The notes below the pieces were generated by a model that was given only the letters and a program-made list of their open reading frames with translations, was not told the origin of the DNA and did no database searches. Shown piece by piece: positions 21,521-56,168 of a DNA stretch of 56,168 nucleotides. Made by a program: the position numbers and the translations under genes. The stretch comes from a virus (Duplodnaviria > Heunggongvirae > Uroviricota > Caudoviricetes), in IMG/VR virus record IMGVR_UViG_3300044699_000054, positions 64,001 to 120,168 of that record; one strand, 5' to 3'. The first letter of the stretch is position 1. Each line of letters opens with the position of its first letter.

Positions 21521-21526
21521 CTCATC

Positions 21527-24699: not shown

Positions 24700-24706
24700 C
24701 GAAAAG

Positions 24707-24747: not shown

Positions 24748-24762
24748 ACCGGGGGGCAGGGG

Positions 24763-25236
24763 TTAGACGTCAGGTGTAACTTCTTCAATTGCGCCGGGAA
24801 CTACTGTGATGCGCTCAGCGTCACCAGCCACAACAACGATCTGGAGATCACCAGAGGCATTAAGGTCGCCAGTGGCTTCAACGTGAACGTTAGCCGTGCC
24901 GAGGGTCCCCGTTGCAGCCGCTGATGCGGTGCCATCACCATTATCCGTAAGTGCAATGATACTGGGATCGTCCACGGTGTAAACCACCGTTTCACCCGCC
25001 GGCAATGGTACCGAGTTACCTACCTCGTCCGTTGCTTCTACGGATAGTGCGACCTTCTTGTCAGCCTGCAAATCCATGATTACATCTACCTTTCGCTGGC
25101 ATGTATGAGTCGGGGCCGGTCCCGCAACTCGCTCTTCTGGAGATGTTTCTAGTGCCGGTCCAATATGCCAGAGCAATCTGCACTTGCGTGGCCGACAACA
25201 GTCACAGTCGACTTTAACTTCGACATGAACCGTCAA
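24763..25236 (-). CDS. Ig-like (Big-type) virion decoration protein
   Basis: Beta-rich VYTVDDPSII.L.DNGDGTASA..TGT.GTANVHV. Confidence 0.55.
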   Translation of the reverse strand: MTVHVEVKVDCDCCRPRKCRLLWHIGPALETSPEERVAGPAPTHTCQRKVDVIMDLQADKKVALSVEATDEVGNSVPLPAGETVVYTVDDPSIIALTDNGDGTASAAATGTLGTANVHVEATGDLNASGDLQIVVVAGDAERITVVPGAIEEVTPDV

Positions 25237-25294
25237 CTTAGTGCCTCCACAATGGGAGCTTCGTGCCTGGAACCTAATAGTACCGAACTACCCA

Positions 25295-26728
25295 CTAAAA
25301 GCCATAACTAGCCGCGTCTTCCCAAAGTGATTGCAACGTTGGGGAAAGAACGTCACGTGGACTTGCGATACGGACCTCTTTCTTTTCACCGTCCATTAAG
25401 AAACGGCAAGCGTGGACTAGCGCATCCAGCCGGTCCGGTGATTCATTTCGGCCCCAGTTGACGAAGGTCACCATCTGATCTTCGAGCTTCTGCATGCGGC
25501 CCACCATGTGCAGCCGACCTTGCTCACAGCGCATTGCCACTGGCTCGCCACGGGTACGCTTCCCTATCTTCGTGTCCACGCGAACGAACGGCGGCCTGGT
25601 ATCTGTGTGGAACATTCCCTGACCAACAAGCTCGAAGTAAGCGTCATTGAATACCTCGTGCATCCAGCGCTTACCTAGGTTCTCTTCACAGATCAACTTG
25701 TCAGCACCGAACTCGGCAACAACTCGCCAAGCCTCCAGTGCCGCCTCACGGCCAACGGCCATGATTGAACGGTCTGCTAGTACGTACATGTGCTTGTTGC
25801 GGTCTCGGCACACGACGACGATCCCCATCTCGTCGTCCTCACCGGTAAGGCTTGGGTCTACGCCGACAACGGTGGCCACAATGTCATCAGGAAGGTCATC
25901 GACGCGGTTGTCCTCGATGTCAATGCGTGAGAACAAGGCACCGTCAAATGCTTCGATGATTTCGCCATACAGCTCCTGGCGGCCGATAGCTGTTCCCTCG
26001 TACCGGCGACGTAGCTCAGCGATAACTAAGCTGGACAGATTGGCGGCATTGTCGAATGTGGACCCGCGAATGACGTGCACGGTGCCGTCGTCTCGACTGA
26101 CCCATTCCTGCAGGATGTCAATCGGCTTCGGGGTTGTGGTAACGAATGCCCGTGGGTGATCTCCCATGAGGTCGGCCCGGAGGCTGGGCATGATTCCCTC
26201 GTACCAGGCTCGCCGTGGGTACTTCCACTTTCCTATCTCATCGAGCCATGCACCTGAAGAGTTGTAACCACGACCGACGTCCGGGTCGTCAGCGCCCTCG
26301 GTGTAAATCTTGGATCCGGATGGGAACAACACCATCGGACGCGGGGACATCTTGTATCGATGCCTGATCTTCCTACGATCCAGCACCTGCAGGATTCCGG
26401 CCGGTCCCTCCATGCAGATGGTTCGAGCATCCGAGAGTGTTTCCGCGATCACGAGCCATTCAGTGGGTGTGCCACGACTGTCGTACGGATGCTTGATCGC
26501 TCGTTCCACGATCCACTCACTGCCGCTACGGCTCTTCCCGTACCCGCGTCCGGCTAGCGCCAGGCACACGAACCAGTCGCCGTCAGGTGGGATCTGCTCT
26601 GGTCGAGCAACCCACCACCACTCACCTCGCAGGATCTCGTTGATGATGTACTCAGGCTGCTGTGCCAGCCACGCTTGGCGCTGGTCGACGGGTAGAAGGG
26701 CCACCCGATCCTGGAGAGATAGCCCCAT
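25295..26728 (-). CDS. terL: Terminase large subunit
   Basis: Walker A AGRGYGKS, WLDE, TTTPKP, RQELYGE, VGVDP, SPDRLDA. Confidence 0.95.
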   Translation of the reverse strand: MGLSLQDRVALLPVDQRQAWLAQQPEYIINEILRGEWWWVARPEQIPPDGDWFVCLALAGRGYGKSRSGSEWIVERAIKHPYDSRGTPTEWLVIAETLSDARTICMEGPAGILQVLDRRKIRHRYKMSPRPMVLFPSGSKIYTEGADDPDVGRGYNSSGAWLDEIGKWKYPRRAWYEGIMPSLRADLMGDHPRAFVTTTPKPIDILQEWVSRDDGTVHVIRGSTFDNAANLSSLVIAELRRRYEGTAIGRQELYGEIIEAFDGALFSRIDIEDNRVDDLPDDIVATVVGVDPSLTGEDDEMGIVVVCRDRNKHMYVLADRSIMAVGREAALEAWRVVAEFGADKLICEENLGKRWMHEVFNDAYFELVGQGMFHTDTRPPFVRVDTKIGKRTRGEPVAMRCEQGRLHMVGRMQKLEDQMVTFVNWGRNESPDRLDALVHACRFLMDGEKKEVRIASPRDVLSPTLQSLWEDAASYGF

Positions 26729-26803
26729 AAAAGTTGATGCTACAACAAATGTCCCGTTGCCTTGATCACCGGTACCAGGGTTTTTTCATACCCCACTAGA
26801 GAC

Positions 26804-26831
26804 TTGACACCCGTACGTGGGGGTGTACAAT
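26804..26831 (+). promoter_or_regulatory. Promoter TTGACA-16-TACAAT with CCCGTACGTGGGGG in the spacer
   Basis: Read directly from sequence. Confidence 0.7.
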
Positions 26832-27053
26832 CGATCTCAGGACAACTGCACAGAGAGAGATGCGTACGCACTCAGGTGCTACGCTGCGAGTGGAAGTCAG
26901 AGCTGCCGAGCTGTTCCTCCCCAGGCTCAACTTGAGCGCCTACTTCCACTGCCCTAACTCAAGAGGAGCAATCCTTTTGGGCGGACCGTACCGGCTGGCT
27001 CCCTCCGGTGGGCAACAGGGAGCCGCATTCGTCTCCTGGTAAAACAGGAGCAA

Positions 27054-27125
27054 GGACGCATAGCTCAATGGGAGAGCACGCGGTTTACACCCGCGAGGCT
27101 CCAGGTTCGAGTCCTGGTGTGTCCA
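27054..27125 (+). tRNA. trnV: tRNA-Val(TAC)
   Basis: CGCGG-TTTACAC-CCGCG. Confidence 0.9.
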
Positions 27126-27133
27126 CGCCAGAA

Positions 27134-43503: not shown

Positions 43504-43740
43504 TCACGCCTCCGTTGATCCGATGAGCCGTGCGTCCGCGAGGATCTCCGCGAGCAGCATGATGGCCTCCACCTCATCGATCTCGCCATCCCAGCCCTGG
43601 ATCGTCTTCAGGTGCCGGCGTGGGACCAGCACCCAGTCCCGTACAACGGCAGCAGGAGCGTAGATGATGGGTGGTTCGGTGTCAGCTGCCTTGCTCTCCA
43701 CTCGCAAAGGCATCCCCAGTCGCCTCCAGCAGGTCAGCAA
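43504..43740 (-). CDS. Hypothetical protein
   Basis: ORF. Confidence 0.45.
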   Translation of the reverse strand: MLTCWRRLGMPLRVESKAADTEPPIIYAPAAVVRDWVLVPRRHLKTIQGWDGEIDEVEAIMLLAEILADARLIGSTEA

Positions 43741-44039
43741 TCCTCGCGCTCTCGGTCCCCACGCCCTCGGTCATCACCCTCTCCTCCCACGCTTCCAGTT
43801 CGAGACCACCCAATCATACCCCCACATCCCCCTGCAGGCAACCAGCCACTGGTACCAGCAATCCAGGTACCAGCAACCAGCCCCGGCAGTCCAAGCCCCG
43901 GCAGTTACCTAACGTAACGTCACCGCGTGGACGGCGGCAGGGCAGAGCCTCCCCCGGCGACCGTGGTCCGGCGGCTTGAGGCATCGACAGCCATCAGCAG
44001 GAACAACACCAGGAACAGGAACGACCAACCCCACTGTAG

Positions 44040-44320
44040 CTTCTACAGAATTTCCGTGGCGATCATAATAGTAGTACTACCTTCTACCTCATTATTTATT
44101 ATCACTACTACTACTTCCCCTTTTTTTTCTTTACTCCAGGTTCAGACTTTACTTATTCATTTAAGTCATAAAAAAGAAAGAAAGACCTGATAAAAGTACC
44201 AGGAACAACGAAAGTTGATCATGAATAACAGGAGTTGATCATGCTTTTGCAGGAACAACTTTTCCGGCCGTTGTGGCGATAGTAAAAACTTTCCACGGAT
44301 CAAGCAGGAACAAGCCGGAG
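44040..44320. other. AT-rich intergenic locus with CAGGAACAA repeats (candidate origin or packaging region)
   Basis: T/A runs; CAGGAACAA at 44200, 44250, 44305; GTTGATCATG twice. Confidence 0.4.
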
Positions 44321-44368
44321 GAAGGTTTGGTGCTACTGTTGTTGTCGCTACAGGCTATAATTCCTGAC

Positions 44369-44743
44369 ATGCCTCGAACTTCGTCCATTTCCAGCCAGTG
44401 GTGGGACCGGTTCCTGGACGGAAACGTCTACCGGTTAGAGATCACCGACCTCCCAGCGGAAGTCAACTCGGCTACTTTCCGTCAACGTGCCTACCGGGAA
44501 GCCAACATCCGCAGGCGGGCGCTGCAGTCGCATCACCCACGCTGGGAGTCCTGGTTCTTCTACCAGGCGCTGTACCGCTATGACCGGTACCTGTTCGCCA
44601 ACCTGCGCGACCCGAACCTGGTCTACATCGACATGCCCAGTCCCGCCGTCTTCGACAAGGAGCTGGCTGACTTCGAGCTGCTAGGTCCCTGCACCTGCGG
44701 ACAGGCACCCAAGTGTCTGCCCTCGTGTGCCCGAGTCAACTAA
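44369..44743 (+). CDS. Hypothetical protein, leaderless after TATAAT
   Basis: TATAAT at 44356-44361, ATG at 44369. Confidence 0.55.
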   Translation: MPRTSSISSQWWDRFLDGNVYRLEITDLPAEVNSATFRQRAYREANIRRRALQSHHPRWESWFFYQALYRYDRYLFANLRDPNLVYIDMPSPAVFDKELADFELLGPCTCGQAPKCLPSCARVN

Positions 44744-44797
44744 CTGGTACCAGCTACCGCAGTACCAGCACAGCAGCCACAGCACCCACCCAAAGTC

Positions 44798-45145
44798 CTA
44801 GCCGGTGGCTTCCTTCAACCTGGCTTCGATCTGGGACAGCTTCTCTTCCACCATGGCCGCGCGGTCAATGACTGGTAGCTCGTCGTCGGCTTCCTCATCA
44901 GTGGTGGTGAGGGCTCGACCCAGGCGGTAGACGGCAGCAAGATCCTTCATCAGCCCGCGACCAATCTCCAGCAGGCGAGGATCAGCAGGCCGGATGCCCT
45001 CGTGGTCCATCTGCAGGCCCTTGTCGATGGGCTGCCACAGCTGCTCGATCCGGGTGACAATCAGCGCCCGCACCCGGCCCTGGTCGTTGACCAGGTTCTC
45101 CTCATTGATCTCGGGGATGGAACCAGCCGGCAGCTCGAAGGTCAT
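44798..45145 (-). CDS. Hypothetical helical protein (possible terminase small subunit)
   Basis: Size, helical pattern, next to a long non-coding gap; function is a guess. Confidence 0.4.
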   Translation of the reverse strand: MTFELPAGSIPEINEENLVNDQGRVRALIVTRIEQLWQPIDKGLQMDHEGIRPADPRLLEIGRGLMKDLAAVYRLGRALTTTDEEADDELPVIDRAAMVEEKLSQIEARLKEATG

Positions 45146-45790
45146 GTGTACCAGGGTACGTGCCCATGCTCCCAGGCAACATGCATGTGGAATTTTTGGA
45201 TCACTGCTTCTTGTTTCGGAATTCAATTTATGTGTTTCCGGCCTACGCGAGCAGGGCCTTCTCCAATCAATGCATTGAAGAGGAGCAAAGTATCAAGCTG
45301 CCGGGGGCAGGCGTCAGGTATGTGTCTTTGCGTAGGCGCCAGCGGCCTGTCCAGAAAAAGCTGTTTGCCTGGCATGGGCTCAATGTCCGATTAGCCTGTT
45401 GTGTGGGCGCGCAACCGGCCCTGGGCGCCTCTCGATTTTCGAATTTTGCAATTTGGACATATGAGACAGGATACAGCTACATGATCACACACACCGTACC
45501 GAACGCGCGTGCGACTGGCGCACCTGGACGCGGCCGGACACTGCCTCTGACCTGCGGAAATAGGCCTGGCTCGATCGCCTGCCGCCATGCGACTGGGCCA
45601 TGGGCCATCGGCGCATATCAATTGACCATAGCCATACCGACCTGCGCCCGTGGCACTGGCCACAGTGGACAGCCCACATCCATGATCACCATAGCAAGGG
45701 GACAGCAGACATCGATGGAAGTAAGATCATTTGGCGGGCAGAAAGATGGGACGAACGTCAGCGCGGGTAGGCACTGACGTTCGCCGATGG

Positions 45791-46327
45791 TCACTCCTCT
45801 ATCTGTCGTGGACTACTGGGACAACGGGACTGCACAGTACGGGCCGAACACAGGTGCCCATTCGATTCGACCCCTGGACCGGAGTCTGTCGGGCTTGGAT
45901 GGCTGGCACGGTTGAATGCGCGTTGACGCTTGGCCGCTTGCACGGCCATGTCTTCTACCCGCTGGAACGGCGTACGTGTCCGGGACCGGATCACGCGCGC
46001 TCGCTCTGTTCGGTAGTCGTGCACTACGGCGCCGCGAGTCGGGAGGTCCATCCCGGCCCACTGCATTGCGGCATCGATCCCTGGTCGCCATTCCTTGTGA
46101 TGTGGGTATCGGTCCAATCCGTCAGCCTGCACGCATTCGAGCAGCCGGAATCCCGGATCTAGCGTGCCAGCTTTGTGCATGAGCCATGCGCCTAGATGCT
46201 GCTCCCACATCGATTGAGCAGCCTCTATGCACGCATGGTCGGACGTGAAGCCATGCGGCCCGTCGTCAATCTGTCCGACTGGTGTGTCTACCCACACATA
46301 GGCCAGCCGACGCACACGGGGTGGCAT
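45791..46327 (-). CDS. Hypothetical protein
   Basis: GGAGGTGA RBS plus hairpin element. Confidence 0.6.
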   Translation of the reverse strand: MPPRVRRLAYVWVDTPVGQIDDGPHGFTSDHACIEAAQSMWEQHLGAWLMHKAGTLDPGFRLLECVQADGLDRYPHHKEWRPGIDAAMQWAGMDLPTRGAVVHDYRTERARVIRSRTRTPFQRVEDMAVQAAKRQRAFNRASHPSPTDSGPGVESNGHLCSARTVQSRCPSSPRQIEE

Positions 46328-46413
46328 AGATCACCTCCCCTTCCTCTCTGATGCCGGACGACCGTCGCCCGGTATCGCGGTCGGATGTCCGGTGTGGACA
46401 TCCGACCTGTGTG

Positions 46414-46647
46414 CTACTCGATCCAACCCCGCGCGTGAGCCGTCAGGTAGGCGGCTGAGAGCGCGCAAGCCTCGCGGCCGGACCCCCAGCCGTTAGCCTG
46501 CGTGGTCACCCTGGCACCCTCGCGGATTGCATCGGCAAGGGTGTAGGCCGACAGCACATCGATCTCGATATCGCGCAGCTCAGCGCGCAGCTCATCGATG
46601 ATCGGGTTTGCCGGACGCGCCTCGGTCGTGGTAGCTGTCTGGTTCAT
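46414..46647 (-). CDS. Hypothetical protein
   Basis: RBS plus hairpin element. Confidence 0.6.
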   Translation of the reverse strand: MNQTATTTEARPANPIIDELRAELRDIEIDVLSAYTLADAIREGARVTTQANGWGSGREACALSAAYLTAHARGWIE

Positions 46648-46731
46648 GGTCGTTCCTCTCTCCACTAGGGACGGTTGACCGTTTCAACCATCCTCGTACC
46701 CGGCACCGGATCTCTCCGGTACCGGGCGACC

Positions 46732-47634
46732 TCACTCCGCAGGCGTCGGAAAACGCAGGTCAACATCCAACGTCTCCAGCCAATCGGCAATGCGTTCACG
46801 CGACCACACGTCGGCCGTTTCATGGGCCGGATGATGGCTGTCATTCAGGTGAATGATCATGTCGCGTACCCTCAACGGGTCATACCCATGTCCGAAGCAT
46901 GTACATGGGTACGTAACCCGCTCGTCCAGTCCCGGAATGAGTCGGGTTAGAACGTTGCCAGCCTGCCCATAGCTTACTGACGTAGCTACGGATCCGGACA
47001 GATTACCCGGATAGATGCCGTGCTCCACGTCGTCAGGGTGGAACCGATAGGCACTGCCAGTCCACTCAAAGTGTATGGGTTTACTGCCGTAGTCACGTTT
47101 CCCGGTGCCATTGCAACGATAGCATGCAATATCTGGCACCAGATGTCCCTCGGTCTTCCCGTGGGGACAGGTAGTGTAACGATGGTTGATCACTTCGCCG
47201 TGCACACACGGGCGATCGCCATACGCGGCGTAGCAATAACGCGGTCCATAGCACGATGACGGCAATACCGCCTTGCCGTGGCATACGCGACACTTCTGGA
47301 CCTTTGCCGGTGTGTAGCTCGGGTTATGCACCGGCAGGAAAAGCTGCCCCTTGTCCGACCAAACCCTAGTCGGTCCATAGGCATTGATGAATTGCTTTGT
47401 GGTGATGGTGTGCCATCCTCCCGTGTCGTACGTGACGGTACCGTCGGCGTGGAAGATCACACAGTACGTGGCATGAAACCGTAGCCCAACATCGCCGTTG
47501 GCGAATCGATGCACACGTTTGGTCCGGCTACTGCCGATTGGTCGATCGAACGTCTTCGTCTTGAGACGGCCACGATCGAGATACGCTATCCAACCGGCAT
47601 GGTCCGATGGGAAAACCGTTCGGTTCCTCATCAT
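46732..47634 (-). CDS. Multi-zinc-finger hypothetical protein
   Basis: CRVC, CYRC; C-terminal IIHLND.H..WSRERIADWLE. Confidence 0.65.
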   Translation of the reverse strand: MMRNRTVFPSDHAGWIAYLDRGRLKTKTFDRPIGSSRTKRVHRFANGDVGLRFHATYCVIFHADGTVTYDTGGWHTITTKQFINAYGPTRVWSDKGQLFLPVHNPSYTPAKVQKCRVCHGKAVLPSSCYGPRYCYAAYGDRPCVHGEVINHRYTTCPHGKTEGHLVPDIACYRCNGTGKRDYGSKPIHFEWTGSAYRFHPDDVEHGIYPGNLSGSVATSVSYGQAGNVLTRLIPGLDERVTYPCTCFGHGYDPLRVRDMIIHLNDSHHPAHETADVWSRERIADWLETLDVDLRFPTPAE

Positions 47635-47709
47635 CGTACCCCTTCCTCACCTGCCGACCGTCGACAGGCTAGCGGCTGAGTGTCCGGTGTGGACACCCAG
47701 CCTCGGTCC

Positions 47710-48067
47710 CTACTCGTCGGCTTCCCAGTCACAGTAGCCACACGAGCACTCGCAATCCTGCTCCCTCGCATTCCTCCGCTTCACAGCTGGCACAGTGCCA
47801 CTCGCATCGGCACGGATCATAGCCGCAGTTACCACACGAGTCATCCTCGTCATCATCGGGATCGATGTGCGATATGTACCCGACGGCTGCCATGATGTCC
47901 CGATGGCCGTAGGCGTACTTTCCACCTCCGGCCGCGCGTGCGGCTGCCATACCCTTGCGGTCTATGCGCGGTAGCTCGATCTCTCGGACCGCTGCACGTT
48001 GATGCGCGCTGATTGCTTGCACGGCCGGCATCAACGCCCGTAACACTTCGATCGGCAGCGATTGCAT
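47710..48067 (-). CDS. Cys-rich hypothetical protein (3' end possibly frameshifted)
   Basis: RBS plus hairpin element. Confidence 0.5.
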
Positions 48068-48151
48068 AGCCGACCTCCCTTCCGTCCATTGTCGACCGTC
48101 GACATAGGACTAGGAACCGGACGCACGGTCAAGTGCGCCCGATCCGACTAG

Positions 48152-49035
48152 CTAGCTTTGACGCGGGGTGGTGCCGTTGTCCTCGTGGTAACTCCGGCCG
48201 TACCCGTCGCGGTCTTCTCCATACCGGTTGTAACCCTCGGCATCCCAGCCGTTTTGATCGAACCGGTAACGCTGCCTACCGTTGGTGTCGAGCCCATCGC
48301 GCCCATACCCCAGCCGGTCGAATCCGTCACGGTTGAATCCGTCGGCGCCGTACCCGTCGTAATTGAATCCTTCCCGGTCAAACCCTTCACGGTTGTAACC
48401 CTCGCGGCCATAGCCGTCTGCGTCGTACCCGTCAAGGTTAAACCGGAATTCCGACCGGCCGTTCTTGTCGACGTGCTCACGGTTGTACCCGTAGGCGTTG
48501 AATCCATCCGCGTTGTATCCGTCGCGGTCGAAGCCGCGCCGGTCGAATCCCTCAGCAGTGTATCCGTCACGGTCGAAACCTTGACGGTTGAATCCTTCCG
48601 CATTGCGGCCGGAGGTATCGAAACCCTCACGGTCGCGGCGCTCGCGGTTGTAGCCGTCGCGTTGTACCCTTCCCGGTCAAAGCCGTCTTTGTCTCTGCCG
48701 TCAGAATCAAACCCATCCGGACCATACATGCGGGTACGGTGCCCTCGGCAGTCGTACCCGTCGGAGTCGAACCAAACGTCAGAACCACAGCGGTCACAGT
48801 CCGTACCCGACGGCCCAAAAGCCGAGGTTAGGGCTCTGTCTGCTTCCGTGCAGAAAGACCGGTTACGGCCCTCACGCACGGTGGCGTTCACAACCTCACG
48901 TTTGATCTCATCACGCTCGGCGTCGGTCACGGCCGCCGCATAAGCGGCCAGATATTGACGCGCGGGTAACTGCCAGTCGGCCGGTAGGCTCGCCACGATG
49001 GCGTCGACGTTGACTGTAGTCAGTGTGGTGTCCAT
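48152..49035 (-). CDS. Pentapeptide (Y/F)(D/N)xxG repeat protein (frameshift ~48660)
   Basis: FDSDGYD..GFDSDGRDKDGFDREGYN, continuing in another frame as GFDRDGYNADGFNAYGYNRE... Confidence 0.7.
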
Positions 49036-49118
49036 AGTAGACACTCCTTTCGTTCACCTGCCGACCGTCGGCAGGCTAGCGCCGTACCCGTATTGCTACG
49101 GGTACGGCTTCGGTCATG

Positions 49119-49367
49119 TCACAGGTCTACGCCGAACCGCCATGCCAGCTCTTGCTGGTCGGCAAGGCTCAGTGCACGGATAGCGGACTCTGCCGCGTCC
49201 ACGGCAGGATTCGCGACCGGCTCGACCGGTTCGACACTCGTAACCTGGACCGTACCGGGCACGACTGCCGAAACGGCTTGCGTCAAGATCCAACCGGCAT
49301 CGCGAACGATCTCGGCGGATCCGTGGGGGGTGTCGATCTGGCCTGTGATGGTAACTGTGTAACGCAT
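49119..49367 (-). CDS. Hypothetical protein
   Basis: Hairpin element upstream. Confidence 0.55.
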   Translation of the reverse strand: MRYTVTITGQIDTPHGSAEIVRDAGWILTQAVSAVVPGTVQVTSVEPVEPVANPAVDAAESAIRALSLADQQELAWRFGVDL

Positions 49368-49456
49368 TGCTTTCCCCTTTCAGGAGAGACAGAGCATGCC
49401 GACCGTCGGCAAGATGTCGCGCCCACACCGGATAGCCGTCCGGTGTGGGCTCCGTG

Positions 49457-49783
49457 CTACTGGCCCGACCAGTCAGATCTGGTCACACAGTGCACGGTCT
49501 CGGCGGATTGCACGGTATCAACCGGGCAACGGTCATCCGCCGCATAAAAGAACCATCGCGCGCCCGGATAGGCATACGCGGCATTTCCCCTGGTCTCCGC
49601 GTCCCATACGCACGGGACCACATCACCCGGCCCATCCTCCACTGGGCACGGGGCCACAGTGGACAGATCGATACGGGTATCGGGCGCGCTATTCGGCGTA
49701 GCGCACGCGATGACCAGCAGAAAGCCAATCACGATTGACCAAGCGGCCGTTGCTGCGCGCGTGATCGTTTTACCTCGGGCCAT
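49457..49783 (-). CDS. Lipoprotein/secreted protein
   Basis: Hydrophobic stretch then IAC; PCPVEDG...CVWDA. Confidence 0.6.
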   Translation of the reverse strand: MARGKTITRAATAAWSIVIGFLLVIACATPNSAPDTRIDLSTVAPCPVEDGPGDVVPCVWDAETRGNAAYAYPGARWFFYAADDRCPVDTVQSAETVHCVTRSDWSGQ

Positions 49784-50010
49784 CACTGACCCTCCCTTCC
49801 GACCGGCGACCGTCGCCAGTCTCGCACCCATACCCGATCACTCGGGTACGGGCCATGTACCTAAGGCTGCAAGAACGCCGAGATCGGCAATGCTTTCTTG
49901 CCGACGCTCTCTCCCGCGCTCCTCCGCATTCGGGGTGCACGGTCGCCGGGCTATTCACCGGTCCTAGGCTGATCTGGTGCTCGGCGCTCATGGAACCTTA
50001 GGTCCACAAA

Positions 50011-50040
50011 GACAGTGTATCATGATGGTTCACATTTTGT
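50011..50040 (-). promoter_or_regulatory. Leftward promoter TGACAA-17-TACACT
   Basis: Shares GACAAAATGTG with two other promoters. Confidence 0.55.
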
Positions 50041-50086
50041 CATTGGTACCGGTACCGGGGCGCAACCCCCGGTACCGGCCGCATGG

Positions 50087-50278
50087 CTACGGTCTCCGCT
50101 TGGCACGTGCCCGGACGGCACGCTCAATGACCCGACGGACCCATTCGGAAGCAGTCACGTCGTCCGATTCCGCGTACTCACGTACGGCGTCTAGCTGCTC
50201 CTGATCGATCACCAATTGAAACTTGGTCCGACCAGGGGCAACCCTGGCGAATGTCGATAGCTGTGTCATGATATCCAC
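50087..50278 (-). CDS. Ribbon-helix-helix DNA-binding protein
   Basis: FQLVID.EQLDAVREYA....TASEWVRRVIERA. Confidence 0.6.
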   Translation of the reverse strand: MDIMTQLSTFARVAPGRTKFQLVIDQEQLDAVREYAESDDVTASEWVRRVIERAVRARAKRRP

Positions 50279-50287
50279 CCTATCATG

Positions 50288-50988
50288 TCAGGCCACGACA
50301 TCCGCATCGATGATCACAGGTTCGCGGAAGATCGGCGCGGCCTCAATTGCCTGAGGCTCGCGCTGCTCCTCTGTCCCCTGCGGTCCCGATGCGGCAACGG
50401 TTACGGCCGGCTCACCCGCGCCAGGATGGCCCTGGACCGATGGGCGACGCTTGCGCGCCTTACCCTGAGGTCCGGGCCGACGCCCCGGCCGGCTGGCTGT
50501 CGGAGCGACTGGCGCTGGTTTCTCGGCCGCGACCGTCACCGACTCAGTATCGGTTGACGTATCACGCTCACGATGTGCCGCGAGAAATGCCTTCGCCCAG
50601 CGTTGGGACGGGTGAAACATGGTCTCCACCGTCACCAGCAAGGCCACCGCGTACACAGCGGCTATGGCCATTGCTACGACGCCCCGGTCATACGCGCTAG
50701 ACACGTTGAACGTGAGCGTGAGAGTTGACCCCAACCATAACCCGATCACGGCCCATACTCGCGTCGCTCGATTTCTGAAACGATCGACAGCAGCCATGAC
50801 TGTGCTGTTGATCATCATTCCGTCGATTGCCACGGGCAGTAATACCGCTACCGGCTCACCCGCTTTGTACCCACGTGGACAATGTGCTGCCACGATGTGT
50901 AAGCCGTCGCCGTAGCGACAACCAGCGATGAAAGCAGGCCGAGTAGGAAGAAGATCACTTCCCTGTACTTGATAAACCACGTCACCAT
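50288..50988 (-). CDS. DUF2637-like membrane protein (frameshift ~50860)
   Basis: SWQHIVHVG / LLPVAIDGMM / TLTFNV, then a basic tail. Confidence 0.65.
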
Positions 50989-51072
50989 GGCTACCTCTCT
51001 CGGTCCCGGACCGTCCGGGACACGGCGGTACGGCCAGCCTCACGGCCAGCCGTACCCCTTACACTTACACGG

Positions 51073-51357
51073 TCACTCGTCGTCCTCGTCGTCTTCGCCC
51101 TCCCATTCATCGACCTCCCACGATTCATCCATCTCGTCGGCGCCGCTTTCGATCATCGCGGCCATGACGCTGCCATCGATGTAATCGACCAGCCGACCGA
51201 CATAGTCTTCGATCGATTCTCCCTGGTCGCGCTCCGGCAACGGGCCATTGACTCCTGGCGCCTCGCGGTTGTGATCGATGAATTCGACCAGTTCAGCGAC
51301 CGAATCAAAGTCGCGTGAGTGTTCGGTGGTACGGGTGAAATTGATCGTTGCGGACAT
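51073..51357 (-). CDS. Acidic hypothetical protein
   Basis: RBS plus hairpin element; D/E tail. Confidence 0.6.
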   Translation of the reverse strand: MSATINFTRTTEHSRDFDSVAELVEFIDHNREAPGVNGPLPERDQGESIEDYVGRLVDYIDGSVMAAMIESGADEMDESWEVDEWEGEDDEDDE

Positions 51358-51433
51358 GGGGGTTTCTCCCTTCCTGCCCACGACCGTCGCGGGCATTGTG
51401 GTACGGCCAGCATCACTGCCGGCCGTACCCTTG

Positions 51434-51673
51434 CTAGATGGTGTGTGGCGGCTCGATCACAACCGCGTCGTCCGAATCGGCCGTGATCAGTATGGCCATG
51501 GGCAAGCCGTGCAGGCCGTCAACATCGCGCGACACGTGCACGATGATCTCGACTTGCAGCCCGTGAAACCATCCGGGCACTAGCCGGATGTCGGCACGGG
51601 GGTCGCTGATCACGCCCATGGTGTGACGGAACCGCCACACGTCCGGATTGAGGTTTGTCACTTTCTTCGACAT
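51434..51673 (-). CDS. Hypothetical protein
   Basis: RBS plus hairpin element. Confidence 0.55.
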   Translation of the reverse strand: MSKKVTNLNPDVWRFRHTMGVISDPRADIRLVPGWFHGLQVEIIVHVSRDVDGLHGLPMAILITADSDDAVVIEPPHTI

Positions 51674-51748
51674 CCCTTGTCTCCCTTCCGACTGGCGACC
51701 GTCGCCAGTCTCGCACCGTACCCGCGTTGCCACGGGTACGGCTGGATC

Positions 51749-52087
51749 TCACGATGCGGCTCTGTCTGCCGTCAATGCCTCTCGCCATGCTTCGGTCAGT
51801 GGCCCGTACTCTCCACCGAAATCGGTCCTGAATCCATGTGTGATCATGAATTCGTCGTCCTCTGTGGAGGGATTGAAGGATGACAGTACCACCCGCCAAT
51901 ATCCACTGTACTCGTAACCAATTCCGTCGATGTCTGCCGACGCAATTGCCTGCCCCAGCACACATGACCACGGGAATTCCATCCGAAGAATGTCAAGCTG
52001 GACCCTGTCCAGGTCCGGCGCGAAAGCTTGTGCGGCCTCAGTGGACTTGAGCCATGCCAAGCCGCGCTGAACCTCTGCCTCATACAT
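51749..52087 (-). CDS. Hypothetical protein (CVLGQ..HGF..LT.AW family)
   Basis: Paralog of 42551-43015. Confidence 0.65.
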   Translation of the reverse strand: MYEAEVQRGLAWLKSTEAAQAFAPDLDRVQLDILRMEFPWSCVLGQAIASADIDGIGYEYSGYWRVVLSSFNPSTEDDEFMITHGFRTDFGGEYGPLTEAWREALTADRAAS

Positions 52088-52237
52088 GATCTCTCCTTTT
52101 CTCACACGGGCGACCGTCGCCAGTGCTCGCGGCCGGACACCGCGCCACCGCAGGTATCCGGCCTCTCTACGTGCTATGTCTATGTACGCTCATCGATCAT
52201 TGGCACCGTACCCGTATCGCTACGGGTACGGCCGGCA

Positions 52238-52603
52238 CTACTTCGACTCGATCACGGATCGCCACAACGGCGTGAGCGCCACTGTGGCCCATTCATCCAT
52301 GTGGCCGAGTACGGAATCATCGATAACGAAGAATCCGTGCTCAGCCATGAAACGATCACTGGCCCAGCCATCCCATTCGTCCGGATCGGAAGCAGCGAAG
52401 AAACGGCGAGCGTTTCCCCACCCACCGAAATAGCTTGATCCGTTGAACACCTGCCCAGCGACACACTCGTCGCCGTTGACCATATTCAACGGGTGGGTGA
52501 TTCGGCCGCGCCAGTCGGCAACCGTACGGTCCAGTAGAGCAGCGCCACGCGCTACGCATGCCTCAGGAGACATATCGAGCGCGGTTGATACCTGTGTGTC
52601 CAT
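52238..52603 (-). CDS. Hypothetical protein (CVAGQ..HGF..LT..W family)
   Basis: VARGAALLD...W motif; paralog. Confidence 0.65.
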   Translation of the reverse strand: MDTQVSTALDMSPEACVARGAALLDRTVADWRGRITHPLNMVNGDECVAGQVFNGSSYFGGWGNARRFFAASDPDEWDGWASDRFMAEHGFFVIDDSVLGHMDEWATVALTPLWRSVIESK

Positions 52604-52681
52604 GATGGACACTCCTCTCTCGTCCGGGGACCGTCCCCAAACGTCGCACCGGTACGGGATCGCTCCCGTACCGGCTCACTG

Positions 52682-52966
52682 TCAGACCTCGCGCAGCTCC
52701 CGGATGCGGCCGCTTTCGACCTCAGCCGTGATCTGTGCCTGCCGCTTTTCGTCGGCGAGCACCGCACGGGCGTGGCGGACCGCGACCGTATCCGCGTCGG
52801 CCGTACCGAGTAGCGCGGCAATGTCTTCGTCATCGAGCCATGTCACGACTCCCGCTGGTGACTGAAAGCCGAACGATAGACCGGTGTCGCCTCCATTGCT
52901 GGCCGCAACGATACATGCCTCGGGAATGATCTCGCCCGTGGTCAGAATGACTGTGAACGTGCGCAT
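52682..52966 (-). CDS. Hypothetical protein
   Basis: RBS plus hairpin element. Confidence 0.55.
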   Translation of the reverse strand: MRTFTVILTTGEIIPEACIVAASNGGDTGLSFGFQSPAGVVTWLDDEDIAALLGTADADTVAVRHARAVLADEKRQAQITAEVESGRIRELREV

Positions 52967-53044
52967 AGCACGCCTCCCTCCACATCGGACGACCGTCGCC
53001 CGATGTTCGCACCGTACCCGCGTTGCCACGGGCACGGCCGTTGG

Positions 53045-53248
53045 TTAGTCTAAGTCCGTGTCTACGGACATCAGTGTTGCCCGTAGAAGGAACGTGATCA
53101 GTACGGCCCACCAATATCCAATGGTAGGCAGGGCAGGCAACCACTCAGCGTGGACCACGCCAATGAGCAGCATAAATACCCATCCGAATGCTAACGATCC
53201 TGCCGCACTGACGACTAGGCCAAGCAGAATCACGCCAATGATGGCCAT
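53045..53248 (-). CDS. Small two-TM membrane protein
   Basis: Hydrophobic; RBS plus hairpin element. Confidence 0.6.
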   Translation of the reverse strand: MAIIGVILLGLVVSAAGSLAFGWVFMLLIGVVHAEWLPALPTIGYWWAVLITFLLRATLMSVDTDLD

Positions 53249-53324
53249 GATGCGCGCTCCCTTCCGACTGCCGACCGTCGACAGGCGTCGCACCGTACCC
53301 GCGTTGCCACGGGTACGGCCACGG

Positions 53325-53516
53325 TTATGCGCTCAGTCGCGCGAGTAGGCGGGTGAACCAACCGGGACGGCGATGTCTCCTGCTGGCAACCTCTTGCCGC
53401 ACAACTCTTTGCCGCGACAGAGCATTGCTGCAGGACTGACACAAGATCTCCGTACCGATGAACCATCCGCCGGACCCCTCAGTACGACCGCAGTGAGCAC
53501 ATTTGTGGGTGAGCAT
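53325..53516 (-). CDS. Small zinc-finger protein
   Basis: CAHC..CQSC; RBS plus hairpin element. Confidence 0.55.
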   Translation of the reverse strand: MLTHKCAHCGRTEGSGGWFIGTEILCQSCSNALSRQRVVRQEVASRRHRRPGWFTRLLARLSA

Positions 53517-53588
53517 GGCGCTCCCTTCCTACCGCGACCGTCGCGGTATTGCGTGCCCGATACGGTCACCCGTACCGGACACATTGAG

Positions 53589-53849
53589 CTAGTCCAGGTA
53601 CACAGTCACGTCAGTGACATCATCTAGCGTGTCGTCGTCGGGGACGGCCTTCGCTTTCGCGCGCAACGCCTCAAGAACGGGACCCATCCGGTCGAGATCG
53701 TATGTAGCATTCTCGATCGCTTCCGTGATGGCGTCCGTGAGGACGTCGAGCGCGTGATCGGCGAAAACTTCGATCACCTCGGAGACAGGCAAGCAGATAT
53801 CGTACTGGTGTGAGCGCGTCTCGGTCCATGACAGCGAATAGTCTGACAT
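53589..53849 (-). CDS. Acidic hypothetical protein
   Basis: RBS plus hairpin element. Confidence 0.55.
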   Translation of the reverse strand: MSDYSLSWTETRSHQYDICLPVSEVIEVFADHALDVLTDAITEAIENATYDLDRMGPVLEALRAKAKAVPDDDTLDDVTDVTVYLD

Positions 53850-53929
53850 GCTGGTCGCTCCTCTCATGACAGGCGACCGTCGCCTGTCATCGCACCGTAC
53901 CCGTATCGCTACGGGTACGGCCGGAATCC

Positions 53930-54196
53930 TCAGTTCAGGTGCGCGGCCTCAGCTTTCGCCAGGATCGCTTCCACCTCAATGCGCGCCTCCCTTATGGCGG
54001 CTAGCATCGGCTGGGCCTTCGCTTGGAACTCCTCGTCTGTCAGTGTTACGTGCGGCTCGGCTTGCAGAACCACCACCGGGGGTGTCGATTCTGTGACCGC
54101 GACCAGCACCATCTTGATCATGTCCTCAATCGTGAGGTCGAGATCAGTCGGCAGTGCCAGCGTGATCGTTACCGGGACATCGACGTACGCGTACAT
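53930..54196 (-). CDS. Hypothetical protein
   Basis: RBS plus hairpin element. Confidence 0.55.
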   Translation of the reverse strand: MYAYVDVPVTITLALPTDLDLTIEDMIKMVLVAVTESTPPVVVLQAEPHVTLTDEEFQAKAQPMLAAIREARIEVEAILAKAEAAHLN

Positions 54197-54366
54197 GACG
54201 CTCCCTCCTGCCCACGACCGTCGCGGGCATTGCGACCCGGCTACCCTCACGGGTACGCCCTCCCCTCTGCCTACGCGTTACGCGGCATGTGTCCCCGTAC
54301 GGGACTCGGGTGGCCACGGCGCTAGCCGTGACAGGCCACGCAGGCCGGTTTCCCCGGCTGCTAGTA

Positions 54367-54396
54367 TCATGATACCATACCCGATCACATTTTGTC
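54367..54396 (-). promoter_or_regulatory. Leftward promoter CGACAA-17-TATCAT
   Basis: GACAAAATGTG family. Confidence 0.55.
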
Positions 54397-54453
54397 GGTG
54401 GGGATCGCTTGGTATCGAGCGCACGGGTACGGTTGCCCGTACCCGTGCCCTGC

Positions 54454-54798
54454 CTACGCCTGTGCGGCCGTGATGCGCTTACGCGCGGCTGCCCGTAGCT
54501 TGCCGTCATCCGTGAAGTCACGGCCGTCGATAACCTCATACGTGCCGCCGAAATGGTCGGCCGTGGCCTTGACTAGATCCACGCCACCGACCCTATCGAA
54601 CGCCTCATCCGTACGGATCAATGCGACGGCCGCGCCGTCTGGCAGCCTCACCGTGGACAGCACCGCGCGCCGGACATCTAGGATCGCTCCTGTGTCCTGG
54701 CAGAACATCTCGCGCTGCACCGCGTAGAGCAGTGTTTGGTAATTCACGTACGCATCACGGTCGATATCGTCGCCCATGATGGCATCCATGATTCCCAT
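54454..54798 (-). CDS. Hypothetical protein
   Basis: RBS plus hairpin element. Confidence 0.6.
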   Translation of the reverse strand: MGIMDAIMGDDIDRDAYVNYQTLLYAVQREMFCQDTGAILDVRRAVLSTVRLPDGAAVALIRTDEAFDRVGGVDLVKATADHFGGTYEVIDGRDFTDDGKLRAAARKRITAAQA

Positions 54799-54875
54799 GG
54801 TCGTGCTCCTTCCCGGACGGGCGACCGTCGCCCATCCTCGCACCTGTGCCCGCGTGAACGGGCACAGGCTTACGG

Positions 54876-55268
54876 TCATGTCACGGGCTGTTTCATGGCC
54901 TCTCGCCAGATGTATCCGGCTCGATCCTTCAGGTGCGCGGCGAGCTGCTTACGGAACTCGGCGTCTGACCTCTTCGGAAAGACGTTTGTCACTAGCCCGA
55001 TGTAGCGCTGCACGTCCTCCGGTGTGATGTACCGGTCCTTGACCGTTACCTCGTCCGTGTCGAATTCGTGCAGCATCGGGCCATAGACGCGCTCCCATGC
55101 GTACACTCGCGCGAACCACTCCTCAGCATTCGCCTCGGTGATCTCGCCCCAACCGATACCCATACACAGGTGCACGATAACGGTTGTCATTGCCGGCGGT
55201 GGCCACGTCTCGCCGTCCCACAATTCCTCGTGGTTGGCGCAGCCTGTGACATTGAAATCGAGAGACAT
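54876..55268 (-). CDS. Hypothetical protein
   Basis: GAAGGGAG RBS plus hairpin element. Confidence 0.6.
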   Translation of the reverse strand: MSLDFNVTGCANHEELWDGETWPPPAMTTVIVHLCMGIGWGEITEANAEEWFARVYAWERVYGPMLHEFDTDEVTVKDRYITPEDVQRYIGLVTNVFPKRSDAEFRKQLAAHLKDRAGYIWREAMKQPVT

Positions 55269-55340
55269 AGCTCCCTTCCTTCACGAGCGACCGTCGCTCG
55301 CTAGTGCGGCCGTACCCGTCACCGGATACGGCCGCGACGA

Positions 55341-55562
55341 TCATTGCAGGTCAGATGAGTCGTACTGACCGATGACACACTCCACGTGCGCATCCGCGCC
55401 GTGGTAGGACATGCCGTCATCACAGCAGTGAATGAAGCCGTCACACAGCACGCAGCGTGCCATGATCAGACAGTCTGGCCCGGGGGCATGATCGTCGGCA
55501 GGACGGGTATAGATCTCCGTCCCTGTATCGCCATCCTCGTGGGACGAGATACATGCGGCCAT
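55341..55562 (-). CDS. Small Cys/His-rich protein
   Basis: RBS plus hairpin element. Confidence 0.5.
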   Translation of the reverse strand: MAACISSHEDGDTGTEIYTRPADDHAPGPDCLIMARCVLCDGFIHCCDDGMSYHGADAHVECVIGQYDSSDLQ

Positions 55563-55640
55563 GACTGGCCTCCCTTCTGGACAGTCGACCGTCGGCTGTC
55601 CTCGCAACCGGGCACCCATCACTGGGCGCCCGGTTCACTG

Positions 55641-55877
55641 CTAGCTGAGTCTGATCAGCTCGAACGTCTCGGATGGCAGGTGCAGAACGATCACGCCTAG
55701 CGCCGCGTCATCCTCACACACAACCACACACTCCTCACACACCCTGTCAGGCCCGTGAGTCGCCGTCGCACCGGTCTCCTCATTCACGCAGTGTTGGATC
55801 ACTACCACGTCCGGCATAGCCGGCCGTCCACACTCGCACGCCTCAAGGATCGTGTGCACGGGCGGGATGGTAAGCAT
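55641..55877 (-). CDS. Small CxC..CxxC protein
   Basis: RBS plus hairpin element. Confidence 0.5.
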   Translation of the reverse strand: MLTIPPVHTILEACECGRPAMPDVVVIQHCVNEETGATATHGPDRVCEECVVVCEDDAALGVIVLHLPSETFELIRLS

Positions 55878-55927
55878 GGTTGCGCTCCCTTCCGGTAGCG
55901 CGGACCGTTCCCCGCTACCTGGTATCA

Positions 55928-55957
55928 CTATACCATGGGCACCCCACATTTTGTCAT
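55928..55957 (-). promoter_or_regulatory. Leftward promoter TGACAA-18-TATAGT
   Basis: GACAAAATGTG family. Confidence 0.6.
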
Positions 55958-56139
55958 TCGTCCAGGTCAGGGGCAGTCTCCGGCGGGAGGGTCGCCAGTG
56001 CTCGCCGGTATCTGTCGGCCTGCTCCATGTCTGCCTTCGTCGGCTGTCGGCCGGCCAGTTTGTCCGCTGCCATGCGTCGGTCGGGACCCTCGGCTAGTGC
56101 GCGCAGCAGTCGAGCGCGCTCCGCATCCGTGCGTGTCAC
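55954..56139 (-). CDS. Hypothetical protein
   Basis: GAGGAG RBS. Confidence 0.5.
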   Translation of the reverse strand: MTRTDAERARLLRALAEGPDRRMAADKLAGRQPTKADMEQADRYRRALATLPPETAPDLDE

Positions 56140-56168
56140 TGTCTCACTCCTCTGTAGGGGTACATAAC

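What the first reader, a model, noticed from the sequence alone, without database searches (positions are those of the whole stretch)
46351..55915. Cassette-like array: 21 small genes each headed by a covarying hairpin with an invariant GA-CCG-T(C) core
Seen: about 20-30 nt upstream of nearly every start codon, directly 5' of the SD, is an inverted repeat. Its arms differ in sequence but stay complementary (ATGACAGGCGA-CCG-TCGCCTGTCAT, TACCGCGA-CCG-TCGCGGTA, GTCCCGGA-CCG-TCCGGGAC, GGACAGTCGA-CCG-TCGGCTGTCC) while the core stays fixed. A second hairpin without a U-tract (often GCCGTACCCG-N-CGGGTACGG) usually sits between the previous gene's stop and this element. Some copies are near-identical over 26-37 bp (49808/51697; 51382/54216). 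Inference: covariation with a fixed apex means a folded structure is recognised, not a plain dsDNA operator. Candidate roles: (a) hairpin promoter for a phage RNA polymerase (N4 vRNAP uses triloop-hairpin promoters with +1 near the stem base, a compatible geometry); (b) RNA processing, antitermination or translation signal, like T7 early RNase III sites; (c) recombination site that shuffles one-gene cassettes, like T4-type PeSL elements or integron attC. I do not recognise this motif as described.
Basis: partly seen in the sequence, partly recalled or inferred. Interest (0 to 1): 0.9.

Follow-up and report, generated by a model that had tools for sequence, protein, structure and literature searches.

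The report
Two-hairpin RNA spacers between phage genes
About 21 small early genes at one end of an uncultured soil actinobacteriophage genome are each separated by the same two-part folded RNA signal (a 12-base-pair gene-end hairpin, then a hairpin with an invariant GA-CGG-UC tip next to the ribosome site); it is real, matches no RNA family in Rfam 15, most likely cuts and protects the messages, and the scan had already met its mirror copy at the other genome end.

Summary
Window 46351-55919 holds 21 minus-strand genes, each headed by a hairpin (B): 19 have the core GACGGTC on the coding strand and 2 have variants. Its stem co-varies: 94% of cells are paired, against 25-42% when the partner is slid. 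G.U outnumbers A.C 15 to 2, so the sense RNA folds, not duplex DNA or the template strand. A second hairpin (A) precedes B. It has 12-14 bp, mostly a GNRA tetraloop, and no U tract.

The region is the right copy of a 12-kb imperfect inverted terminal repeat, and the motif occurs only in the two arms. The scan had already described the left-arm copy (e1-1836465, e1-1836466).

New here:
- In a related phage, hairpin A is replaced by tRNA-derived minihelices.
- Three sigma-70-like promoters and one canonical terminator frame the array.
- All eight stem substitutions between the arms keep pairing.
- Cassette gain and loss happens at the A/linker junction.
- The genome encodes no recombinase and no recognisable phage RNA polymerase.

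Best reading (0.55): the modules punctuate polycistronic early mRNA. Cleavage in the A-B linker leaves A as a 3' cap and B as a 5' tag that an unknown factor reads. The N4-type promoter and attC-type site readings are disfavoured. Nothing has been shown experimentally.

The parts
43693..56168 (.). Right arm of the imperfect inverted terminal repeat of the 120,168-bp virus record
   Evidence: blastn of the genome ends, 97.9-99.2% identity, one 424-bp indel; 133 differences in 12,052 aligned bases
55927..55957 (-). Promoter-like site P1 (ATGACA, 19 nt, TATAGT); the predicted start lies 1-2 nt before the first hairpin B
   Evidence: read from the sequence; the same 12-mer ATGACAAAATGT recurs at P3
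54369..54398 (-). Promoter-like site P2 (CCGACA, 18 nt, TATCAT)
50014..50043 (-). Promoter-like site P3 (ATGACA, 18 nt, TACACT)
54814..55919 (-). Modules 1-4 (P1 unit). Hairpin B at 55894-55919 (variant tip), 55578-55602, 55280-55304, 54814-54838. Hairpin A at 55607-55634, 55307-55334, 54842-54869
   Evidence: covariance model R1 25.9-29.4 bits; folds; table
51000..54256 (-). Modules 5-14 (P2 unit). Hairpin B at 54207, 53866, 53527, 53264, 52982, 52620, 52103, 51688, 51373 and 51000 (each 25 nt upward). Hairpin A at 53894-53921, 53554-53581, 53292-53319, 53011-53038, 52648-52675, 52205-52232, 51715-51742, 51401-51428, 51028-51055
   Evidence: R1 26.0-33.1 bits
46351..49853 (-). Modules 15-21 (P3 unit). 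Hairpin B at 49799, 49392, 49054, 48085, 47647 and 46351 (each 25 nt upward) and 46668-46692 (variant tip). Hairpin A at 49826-49853, 49421-49450, 49081-49108, 48114-48145, 47674-47702, 46699-46726, 46379-46407
   Evidence: R1 22.7-31.1 bits
52222..52645 (-). One-gene cassette (linker, hairpin B, SD, 121-aa gene, hairpin A) present in this arm only
   Evidence: absent from the left arm, junction at GGT|GC after hairpin A; a joined form and half depth in a soil DNA run
45750..45785 (-). Only canonical terminator-like site (15-bp stem plus T-rich tail), directly after the last gene that carries a hairpin B
45791..55877 (-). The 21 module-headed genes (46 to 300 codons), nearly all without a known family

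Best explanation
The element is an RNA signal on the coding strand that punctuates long early transcripts. Host RNA polymerase starts at three sigma-70-like promoters and reads the array as polycistronic RNA up to one canonical terminator. Each spacer then holds hairpin A (12-14 bp, usually a GNRA tetraloop), a 3-5 nt purine-rich linker with a single C (typically GCGA), hairpin B (8-12 bp, invariant GA-CGG-UC tip), and a strong SD. I infer that an endonuclease cuts in the linker. The candidates are actinobacterial RNase E, which cuts 5' of C, or a tRNA-processing enzyme that reads hairpin A as an acceptor/T-arm mimic. Each released message would then end in hairpin A, which guards against 3' exonucleases. 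It would begin with hairpin B, which guards the 5' end and keeps the SD free of upstream pairing. The fixed tip of B is inferred to be the docking site of an unidentified phage or host factor that marks or regulates these messages. Because the modules are repeated, they also serve as sites of homologous or short-homology recombination that adds and removes one-gene cassettes. Shown: the RNA-level fold, its strand, its restriction to the two terminal arms, the promoter and terminator frame, the tRNA-derived version in a relative, and the cassette junctions.
For: Covariation of B. G.U versus A.C is 15:2 in B and 25:4 in A under a symmetric rule. Sense folds are 6.5 kcal/mol more stable than antisense, p=2.7e-5, mean z -4.6. 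Eight of 8 stem substitutions between the two arms keep pairing: 7 by WC to G.U changes, 1 by a double change. Model R1 hits only the two arms of this genome, none in the 96-kb unique part. It also hits the terminal arrays of two related phages (G005 7 canonical copies, G011 11) with the same tip but different stems. Three promoter-like sites and a single U-tract terminator after the last module gene. At P1, and at a consensus TTGACA-17-TATACT promoter in G011, B begins within 1-10 nt of the predicted start. In G005 hairpin A is replaced in 12 spacers by a minihelix with the T-loop motif GGTTCGACTCC. In the best case it has a 7-bp acceptor stem, and it mostly ends in ACCA. Its T arm is 19/19 identical to that phage's own tRNA-Arg gene, and it gives weak hits to the tRNA-like mascRNA model. 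Such tRNA-like elements and acceptor-like stem-loops mark mRNA ends in plant mitochondria (PMC1920247). Mycobacterial RNase E cuts immediately 5' of cytidines, often in intergenic regions (PMC10641625). Array sequences occur in two soil RNA libraries.
Against: No transcript end has been mapped. The RNA libraries are assembled contigs that cannot show ends and may contain DNA. Protection alone does not explain an invariant tip, and no reader was found: no protein family is shared by the three arrays. Hairpin A of this phage has no T loop and no CCA, so recognition by RNase P or Z is conjecture. Only part of the published RNase E context fits the linker. The host is unknown.
Confidence: 0.55

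Rival explanations
1. Hairpin B is purely a translational operator. A phage or host RNA-binding protein docks on the fixed tip and switches all early cistrons on or off together, without any RNA cleavage. This would resemble T4 RegA, Mu Com or the coat-protein operators. Hairpin A only attenuates or stabilises.
For: The fixed tip with a free stem is the usual signature of a protein-bound hairpin. B abuts the SD. The arrays encode small Cys-rich and Arg-rich proteins, for example the 63-aa zinc-ribbon protein at 53325-53516.
Against: B lies upstream of the SD and start codon and does not cover them. No candidate protein is conserved across the three arrays. This reading does not explain the constant A-linker-B geometry or the tRNA-like form of A in G005.
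Confidence: 0.2
2. Hairpin B is a DNA hairpin promoter for a phage-borne RNA polymerase of the N4 virion type, and hairpin A is its terminator. Each cassette would then be a separate transcription unit.
For: The shape matches N4 early promoters: a GC-rich heptamer at the centre of inverted repeats whose non-conserved bases need only pair (PMC4496689). A start 11 nt from the centre would fall just before the SD. The genome has a 3,384-codon virion-type giant gene.
Against: N4 reads the template-strand hairpin. Here the 15 G.U pairs of the sense strand become A.C mismatches on the template. The central base on the template is C, not a purine. Sigma-70-like promoters head the array in two phages. 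The giant protein has no PDB relative at E<=1, no Pfam or virion-polymerase PHROG match, no T7-type motif B, and is cut by Lys-rich linkers into domains of at most 877 aa. The PF00940 search was silent, but its control was silent too.
Confidence: 0.07
3. The modules exist mainly as recombination sites that shuffle one-gene cassettes (attC-like or PeSL-like), and any RNA fold is secondary.
For: One cassette differs between the arms. A soil population carries a 1,689-bp deletion between two identical copies of hairpin A. The same gene carries different B stems in the two arms.
Against: No tyrosine or serine recombinase is present, with positive controls. The junctions lie at hairpin A and the linker, not at the conserved core. 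The strand-specific G.U pattern and the fixed distance to the SD are not needed for recombination.
Confidence: 0.06
4. The 9-bp palindrome CGAC-G-GTCG is a duplex DNA operator for a repressor that shuts off early genes, as recalled for the conserved inverted repeats of Streptomyces phage phiC31.
For: The core is palindromic, and a ribbon-helix-helix-like gene sits in the array.
Against: A duplex site needs no co-varying flanks. The central base is always G on the coding strand. G.U pairs are strand-specific. The core is too short for a typical dimeric operator.
Confidence: 0.05

Closest known systems
Start-associated sequences and extended SAS of cluster K mycobacteriophages (PMC3203893)
   Same: Repeats placed just upstream of the start codons of a subset of non-structural genes of an actinophage, all in one orientation, with function unproven and a suspected role in translation. 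About half carry inverted repeats upstream.
   Different: SAS is a 13-bp asymmetric sequence that overlaps the SD, and its ESAS arms are conserved in sequence around a variable spacer. Here the arms are free and the centre is fixed, and a second gene-end hairpin belongs to the module.
PeSL cassettes of T4-type phages (PMC2839356)
   Same: Small repeated regulatory cassettes with stem-loops between non-essential early genes. Recombination between them shuffles genes.
   Different: Each PeSL carries its own sigma-70-like promoter, and its stem-loop is an effective terminator. Here only 3 promoter-like sites serve 21 modules, and the hairpins lack U tracts.
RNase III processing sites of T7 and SP82/SPO1 early mRNAs
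   Same: Polycistronic early RNA from host polymerase is cut between cistrons at conserved hairpins, and the hairpin left at the end stabilises the message. In SPO1 the early module lies in the terminal repeat.
   Different: Those sites are single long irregular hairpins. Here there are two short perfect hairpins with a single-stranded linker, which is not a typical RNase III substrate.
t-elements and tRNA punctuation of organelle mRNAs (PMC1920247)
   Same: tRNA-like minihelices with the GGTTCRANYCC motif, and plain acceptor-like stem-loops, sit at mRNA boundaries and are read by RNase P or Z. The G005 spacers carry exactly such minihelices.
   Different: That system is in plant mitochondria, not phages. 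In this window the T loop is replaced by a tetraloop, and no end has been mapped.
N4 virion RNA polymerase early promoters (PMC4496689)
   Same: A small hairpin with a fixed GC-rich centre and free but paired flanks.
   Different: In N4 the hairpin forms on the template DNA strand with a purine at the loop centre, there are three per genome, and a virion polymerase is needed. Here the sense strand folds, there are about 20 per arm, and no polymerase was found.
Protein-read operator hairpins (MS2 and PP7 coat operators, lambda boxB; own knowledge)
   Same: A fixed loop and closing pairs on a stem of free sequence.
   Different: Those occur once or twice per genome, and their readers are known.

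Membership tests
N4-type hairpin promoter | The hairpin forms on, and is read from, the template DNA strand | tested here: not met
   Non-Watson-Crick pairs are G.U on the sense strand 15:2, so they are A.C on the template. Sense folds are more stable.
N4-type hairpin promoter | A phage-encoded single-subunit (virion) RNA polymerase | tested here: inconclusive
   No PF00940 match, but the control was silent. The giant ORF has no PDB, Pfam or polymerase PHROG match and no motif B. No structure was predicted.
N4-type hairpin promoter | Primary transcripts start about 11 nt from the loop centre | not testable with these tools
   Only assembled contigs of RNA libraries were available.
Integron attC / site-specific cassette site | A tyrosine (or serine) recombinase encoded with the array | tested here: not met
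   PF00589 and PF00239 gave no match in the 120-kb genome, while the controls rang in 14 and 12 genomes.
Integron attC / site-specific cassette site | Crossover at the conserved core of the site | tested here: not met
   Both observed junctions lie at hairpin A and the linker.
PeSL cassette | A sigma-70-like early promoter in each cassette | tested here: not met
   Three promoter-like sites for 21 modules.
PeSL cassette | Recombination between cassettes creates gene indels | tested here: met
   A 424-bp one-gene indel between the arms and a 1,689-bp deletion between identical hairpins in a soil run.
SAS/ESAS (cluster K) | A conserved 13-bp asymmetric repeat at the SD/start, with ESAS arms conserved in sequence | tested here: not met
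   Here the arms vary and the centre is fixed. The published consensus is absent from the spacers printed.
Intrinsic terminator | A GC-rich hairpin followed by a U tract | tested here: not met
   None of the A or B hairpins was called. The one canonical site is at 45785-45750 after the array.
t-element / tRNA punctuation | A T-arm motif GGTTCRANYCC stacked on an acceptor stem | tested here: inconclusive
   Met in relative G005 (12 copies). In this window hairpin A keeps the 12-13 bp length but has a tetraloop instead of a T loop.
t-element / tRNA punctuation | mRNA ends coincide with the ends of the element | not testable with these tools
   No raw RNA reads were available.
Rfam families | A match to any curated covariance model | tested here: not met
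   cmscan at E<=1 over 45700-56168 gave two unrelated sub-threshold hits.

The most novel reading that the evidence does not exclude
A clade of soil actinophages punctuates its early polycistronic messages in the way organelles do. tRNA-derived minihelices, or 12-bp acceptor-like hairpins, are cut by the host tRNA-processing or RNase E machinery. Every released message then starts with the same GA-CGG-UC hairpin. That hairpin acts as a self-mark that a dedicated factor reads, to spare or preferentially translate phage early mRNAs during host take-over.
Probability: 0.25. Interest if true: 0.85.

Novelty: new variant of a known kind. Interest (0 to 1): 0.62.

Why it matters
How phages organise the burst of small early host take-over genes is known for only a few model phages. 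This element is a compact, portable unit with three jobs: it marks a gene end, marks the next gene's start, and supplies a strong ribosome site. It is under clear selection as RNA and is shared by several uncultured soil actinophages. If the cleavage model holds, it would be a phage counterpart of tRNA punctuation. It would also give a ready-made insulator for multi-gene expression in actinobacteria. If the fixed tip has a dedicated reader, that would be a new RNA-protein pair controlling a whole gene class. The modules also show directly how one-gene cassettes are exchanged in the most plastic part of these genomes.

Tried and rejected
1. Mimicry of 16S rRNA helix 45. Hairpin A shares GCCGTACC with the 3' end of real actinobacterial 16S genes. 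However, 7-mer sharing with 16S is no higher than with shuffled 16S (268 against 258 +/- 37), so this was dropped.
2. Pattern scans for the module gave almost only single chance hits. These were viral contigs and genome contigs. No cellular genome among the 120 loci shown had an array.
3. A search for a reader found none. No protein family is shared by the arrays of G000, G005 and G011, and the array proteins have no informative Pfam or PHROG match.
4. The conserved 115-142-aa protein next to the arrays was used to fish for more arrays. This gave only one new contig, and that contig ends beside the gene.
5. Complete relatives G001, G002 and G004 have no hairpin B. Their contigs stop where the arms should begin, so this is not evidence that they lack it.
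6. Homologues of one array protein led to other soil phages. Those have two-hairpin spacers and an invariant leader, but not this tip.
7. The RNA-library contigs cannot show transcript ends, and palindromes break such assemblies.
8. MAFFT could not align hairpin A because the copies share no primary sequence. The pairs were therefore counted in a script.
9. The VIPR system noted earlier in this genome uses GGY/NN guide repeats for DNA silencing and has no evident link to these hairpins.

Full report
**What is there**

The window is the last 56,168 bases of a 120,168-bp IMG/VR virus record with 57% G+C. It encodes a T4-type large terminase, a family A DNA polymerase closest to those of Microbacterium and Arthrobacter phages (59% identity), a primase-helicase and 40 tRNA genes. 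It is therefore an uncultured actinobacteriophage. Near-identical sequence occurs in soil and rhizosphere metagenomes of 19 studies.

The two genome ends are an imperfect inverted repeat of about 12 kb. The arms are 97.9-99.2% identical, with one 424-bp indel and 133 other differences. The finding lies in the right arm. Its genes are on the minus strand and read inward from the genome end.

**Check of the observation**

The core GACCGTC occurs 34 times in the window against 11.7 expected, and no shuffle reached 34. Twenty copies lie at 46360-55593, and 19 of them are hairpin apices upstream of a start codon. Two more spacers carry variant tips, GAACGGTC and GAAACGGTC.

I aligned 26 copies: 19 from this arm, one that differs in the left arm, and 6 from a relative. 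The seven central letters are invariant. The nine predicted pairs are formed in 94.2% of cells, against 63% in column shuffles (0 of 500 reached the observed value) and 25-42% when the partner column is slid. All seven variable pairs show changes on both sides, in 63 cells.

The upstream hairpin A is equally regular. Seventeen of 21 spacers have a 12-15 bp stem, 13 have a GNRA tetraloop, and many unrelated sequences form the same shape. The order is always the same: stop codon, hairpin A, a 3-5 nt linker (most often GCGA), hairpin B, an SD of the type GGAAGGGAG within 0-3 nt, then ATG.

**Which molecule folds**

Four tests agree that the coding-strand RNA is the folded form.
- In hairpin B, the non-Watson-Crick pairs are G.U 15 times and A.C twice (p=0.002).
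- In hairpin A, detected with a rule that admits G.U and A.C equally, the counts are 25 and 4 (p=1e-4).
- The A-B region folds 6.5 kcal/mol better as sense than as antisense RNA (Wilcoxon p=2.7e-5). It lies on average 4.6 standard deviations below shuffled sequence.
- The two arms act as a natural experiment. Their differences touch eight stem pairs, and all eight remain paired in both arms. Seven changed by a Watson-Crick to G.U switch and one by a CG to GC double change.

A duplex operator, a cruciform or a template-strand hairpin would not produce this asymmetry.

**Distribution**

A covariance model of hairpin B finds every copy in the two arms and nothing in the 96-kb unique part of the genome.

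The phages sharing the terminase (58-79% identity) behave as follows.
- G005 carries 7 canonical copies plus variants in its terminal arm.
- G011 carries 11 copies at its contig end.
- Both have the same tip and different stems.
- G005 variants keep the loop and the closing A-U pair while the next pair switches from G-C to A-U. One variant has UGG in the loop.
- Three complete relatives show no copy. Their contigs stop at the inner edge of the arms, so their arrays are probably unassembled.

No Rfam family matches. The scan had already described the mirror copy in the left arm (notes e1-1836465 and e1-1836466). My results agree with those notes and were obtained independently on this arm.

**Transcription frame**

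Three promoter-like sites face the array, at about 55957-55927, 54398-54369 and 50043-50014. Two of them share the 12-mer ATGACAAAATGT at the -35 position.

The only hairpin followed by a T-rich tail lies at 45785-45750, directly after the last gene that has a hairpin B. None of the A hairpins has such a tail.

At P1 the predicted start lies one or two bases before the first hairpin B. In G011 a consensus TTGACA-17-TATACT promoter is followed by hairpin B about ten bases later.

This frame fits host-polymerase transcription of long early RNAs with internal RNA-level signals. It does not fit 21 separate promoter-terminator units.

**The tRNA link**

In G005, hairpin A is replaced in 12 spacers by a minihelix.
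- It carries the T-loop motif GGTTCGACTCC on a 5-bp stem, stacked on an acceptor-like stem. Most copies are followed by ACCA.
- In one copy the acceptor stem has a different, compensated sequence. Infernal aligns that copy end to end with the acceptor and T arms of the tRNA-like mascRNA model, although below its threshold.
- The T arm is identical over 19 bases to the T arm of that phage's own tRNA-Arg(TCT) gene.
- One G011 spacer also carries a T-loop-like element.

The 12-bp length of the minihelix equals the modal stem length of hairpin A in this window. One hairpin A (46699-46726) shares 11 of 12 bases of its 3' arm with the G005 minihelix (read).

In plant mitochondria such t-elements, found with the same motif, and even plain acceptor-like stem-loops, coincide with mRNA ends. 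There they are taken to direct RNase P and RNase Z (PMC1920247).

The phage's own tRNA genes do not encode CCA, so endonucleolytic 3' processing of tRNA-like substrates is expected in the host. Independently, mycobacterial RNase E cuts immediately 5' of cytidines, often between genes (PMC10641625), and most linkers here contain a single C. These links are inference. No end has been mapped.

**Cassette behaviour**

- The right arm has one extra unit of linker, hairpin B, SD, a 121-codon gene and hairpin A (52222-52645). The junction lies exactly at the 3' end of hairpin A (GGT|GC).
- A soil DNA run shows the joined form, with half depth over the extra unit. Another run shows a 1,689-bp deletion between two copies of hairpin A that are identical over 33 bases.
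- The same membrane-protein gene is headed by different, fully compensated B stems in the two arms.
- The genome has no tyrosine or serine recombinase, with positive controls.

Cassette turnover is therefore real. It looks like recombination between repeated modules, as with PeSLs (PMC2839356), and not like site-specific exchange at the conserved core.

**The promoter rival**

N4 early promoters have a GC-rich heptamer at the centre of inverted repeats whose other bases need only pair. That is the same shape as hairpin B. However, they are read on the template strand, with a purine at the loop centre (PMC4496689). Here the template strand would carry the A.C mismatches and a central C.

The 3,384-codon gene at genome 55037-65191 is the only polymerase-sized candidate, and nothing marks it as one.
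- It has no PDB relative at E<=1 and no Pfam match. Its only PHROG match is to a family of unknown function.
- It has no T7-type motif B.
- Lys-rich linkers divide it into domains, the longest 877 residues.

I did not fold it, so a cryptic polymerase is not strictly excluded.

**Verdict**

The element is a genuine, selected, strand-specific RNA module that is absent from Rfam 15. Its kind is known: start-associated and intergenic hairpin cassettes of phage early regions. Its design and its tRNA-derived sibling are not. What reads the tip is unknown, and all mechanistic steps beyond the fold remain to be tested.

Noticed in passing
window 43693-56168 and genome 1-12050: The virus record ends in imperfect inverted repeats of about 12 kb, with small-gene arrays reading inward from both ends. 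Relative G002 is flagged with 123-bp inverted ends, and the right end of G005 repeats an inner part of its left arm. I know of no described tailed actinophage with a terminase and repeats like these.
   Followed up: partly
window 1-1191 (genome 55037-65191, minus strand): A giant 3,384-codon ORF built of many small domains on Lys/Ala/Pro-rich linkers. It has a kinase-like DxxxxN...D stretch and a C-terminal HEVGH zinc-protease motif, and no Pfam or PDB match.
   Followed up: partly
window 10369-27126: Forty tRNA genes on the + strand. Almost none encodes the 3' CCA, and many are followed by G(C/T)(A/G), which resembles the GCGA linker after hairpin A.
   Followed up: partly
window 48657 and 50863: Public runs carry one extra base at these two places: 48657 in the two DNA runs, 50863 in both DNA runs and both RNA-library runs. 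The record therefore probably has two frameshift errors or variants. With the extra base, 50288-50988 would read as one DUF2637-like membrane protein gene.
   Followed up: partly
window 50087-50272 and 49990-50043: A 61-aa ribbon-helix-helix-like (CopG-type, weak match) gene ends just upstream of promoter-like site P3. P1 and P3 share the 12-mer ATGACAAAATGT, a possible operator.
   Followed up: no
window 44801-45145: A helical protein of about 115 aa with an invariant RPxDPRxxEIG motif lies just inside the arrays. In relatives it sits at or near contig ends (G001, G005, G011, L473), as if assemblies break at the repeated arrays.
   Followed up: partly
L482 4690-12110 (also L483, L484): Another soil phage has spacers of stop codon, long hairpin, short hairpin and an invariant leader CCCAAGGAGGGTACC before about a dozen small genes. 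It lacks the GACGGTC tip, so two-hairpin spacers seem widespread among such phages.
   Followed up: partly
L329 (G011) modules, e.g. 6018-6120: In G011 the reverse complement of the tip (GACCGTCG) sits at the upstream stop codon of most modules. It can pair with the tip of hairpin B around hairpin A. RNAfold prefers this alternative in 3 of 11 copies, so it may be a switch coupled to termination of translation.
   Followed up: no
L334 10264-10336 (G005): ARAGORN calls a tRNA with anticodon CTA (reported as Pyl), that is, a possible amber-suppressor tRNA in the related phage.
   Followed up: no
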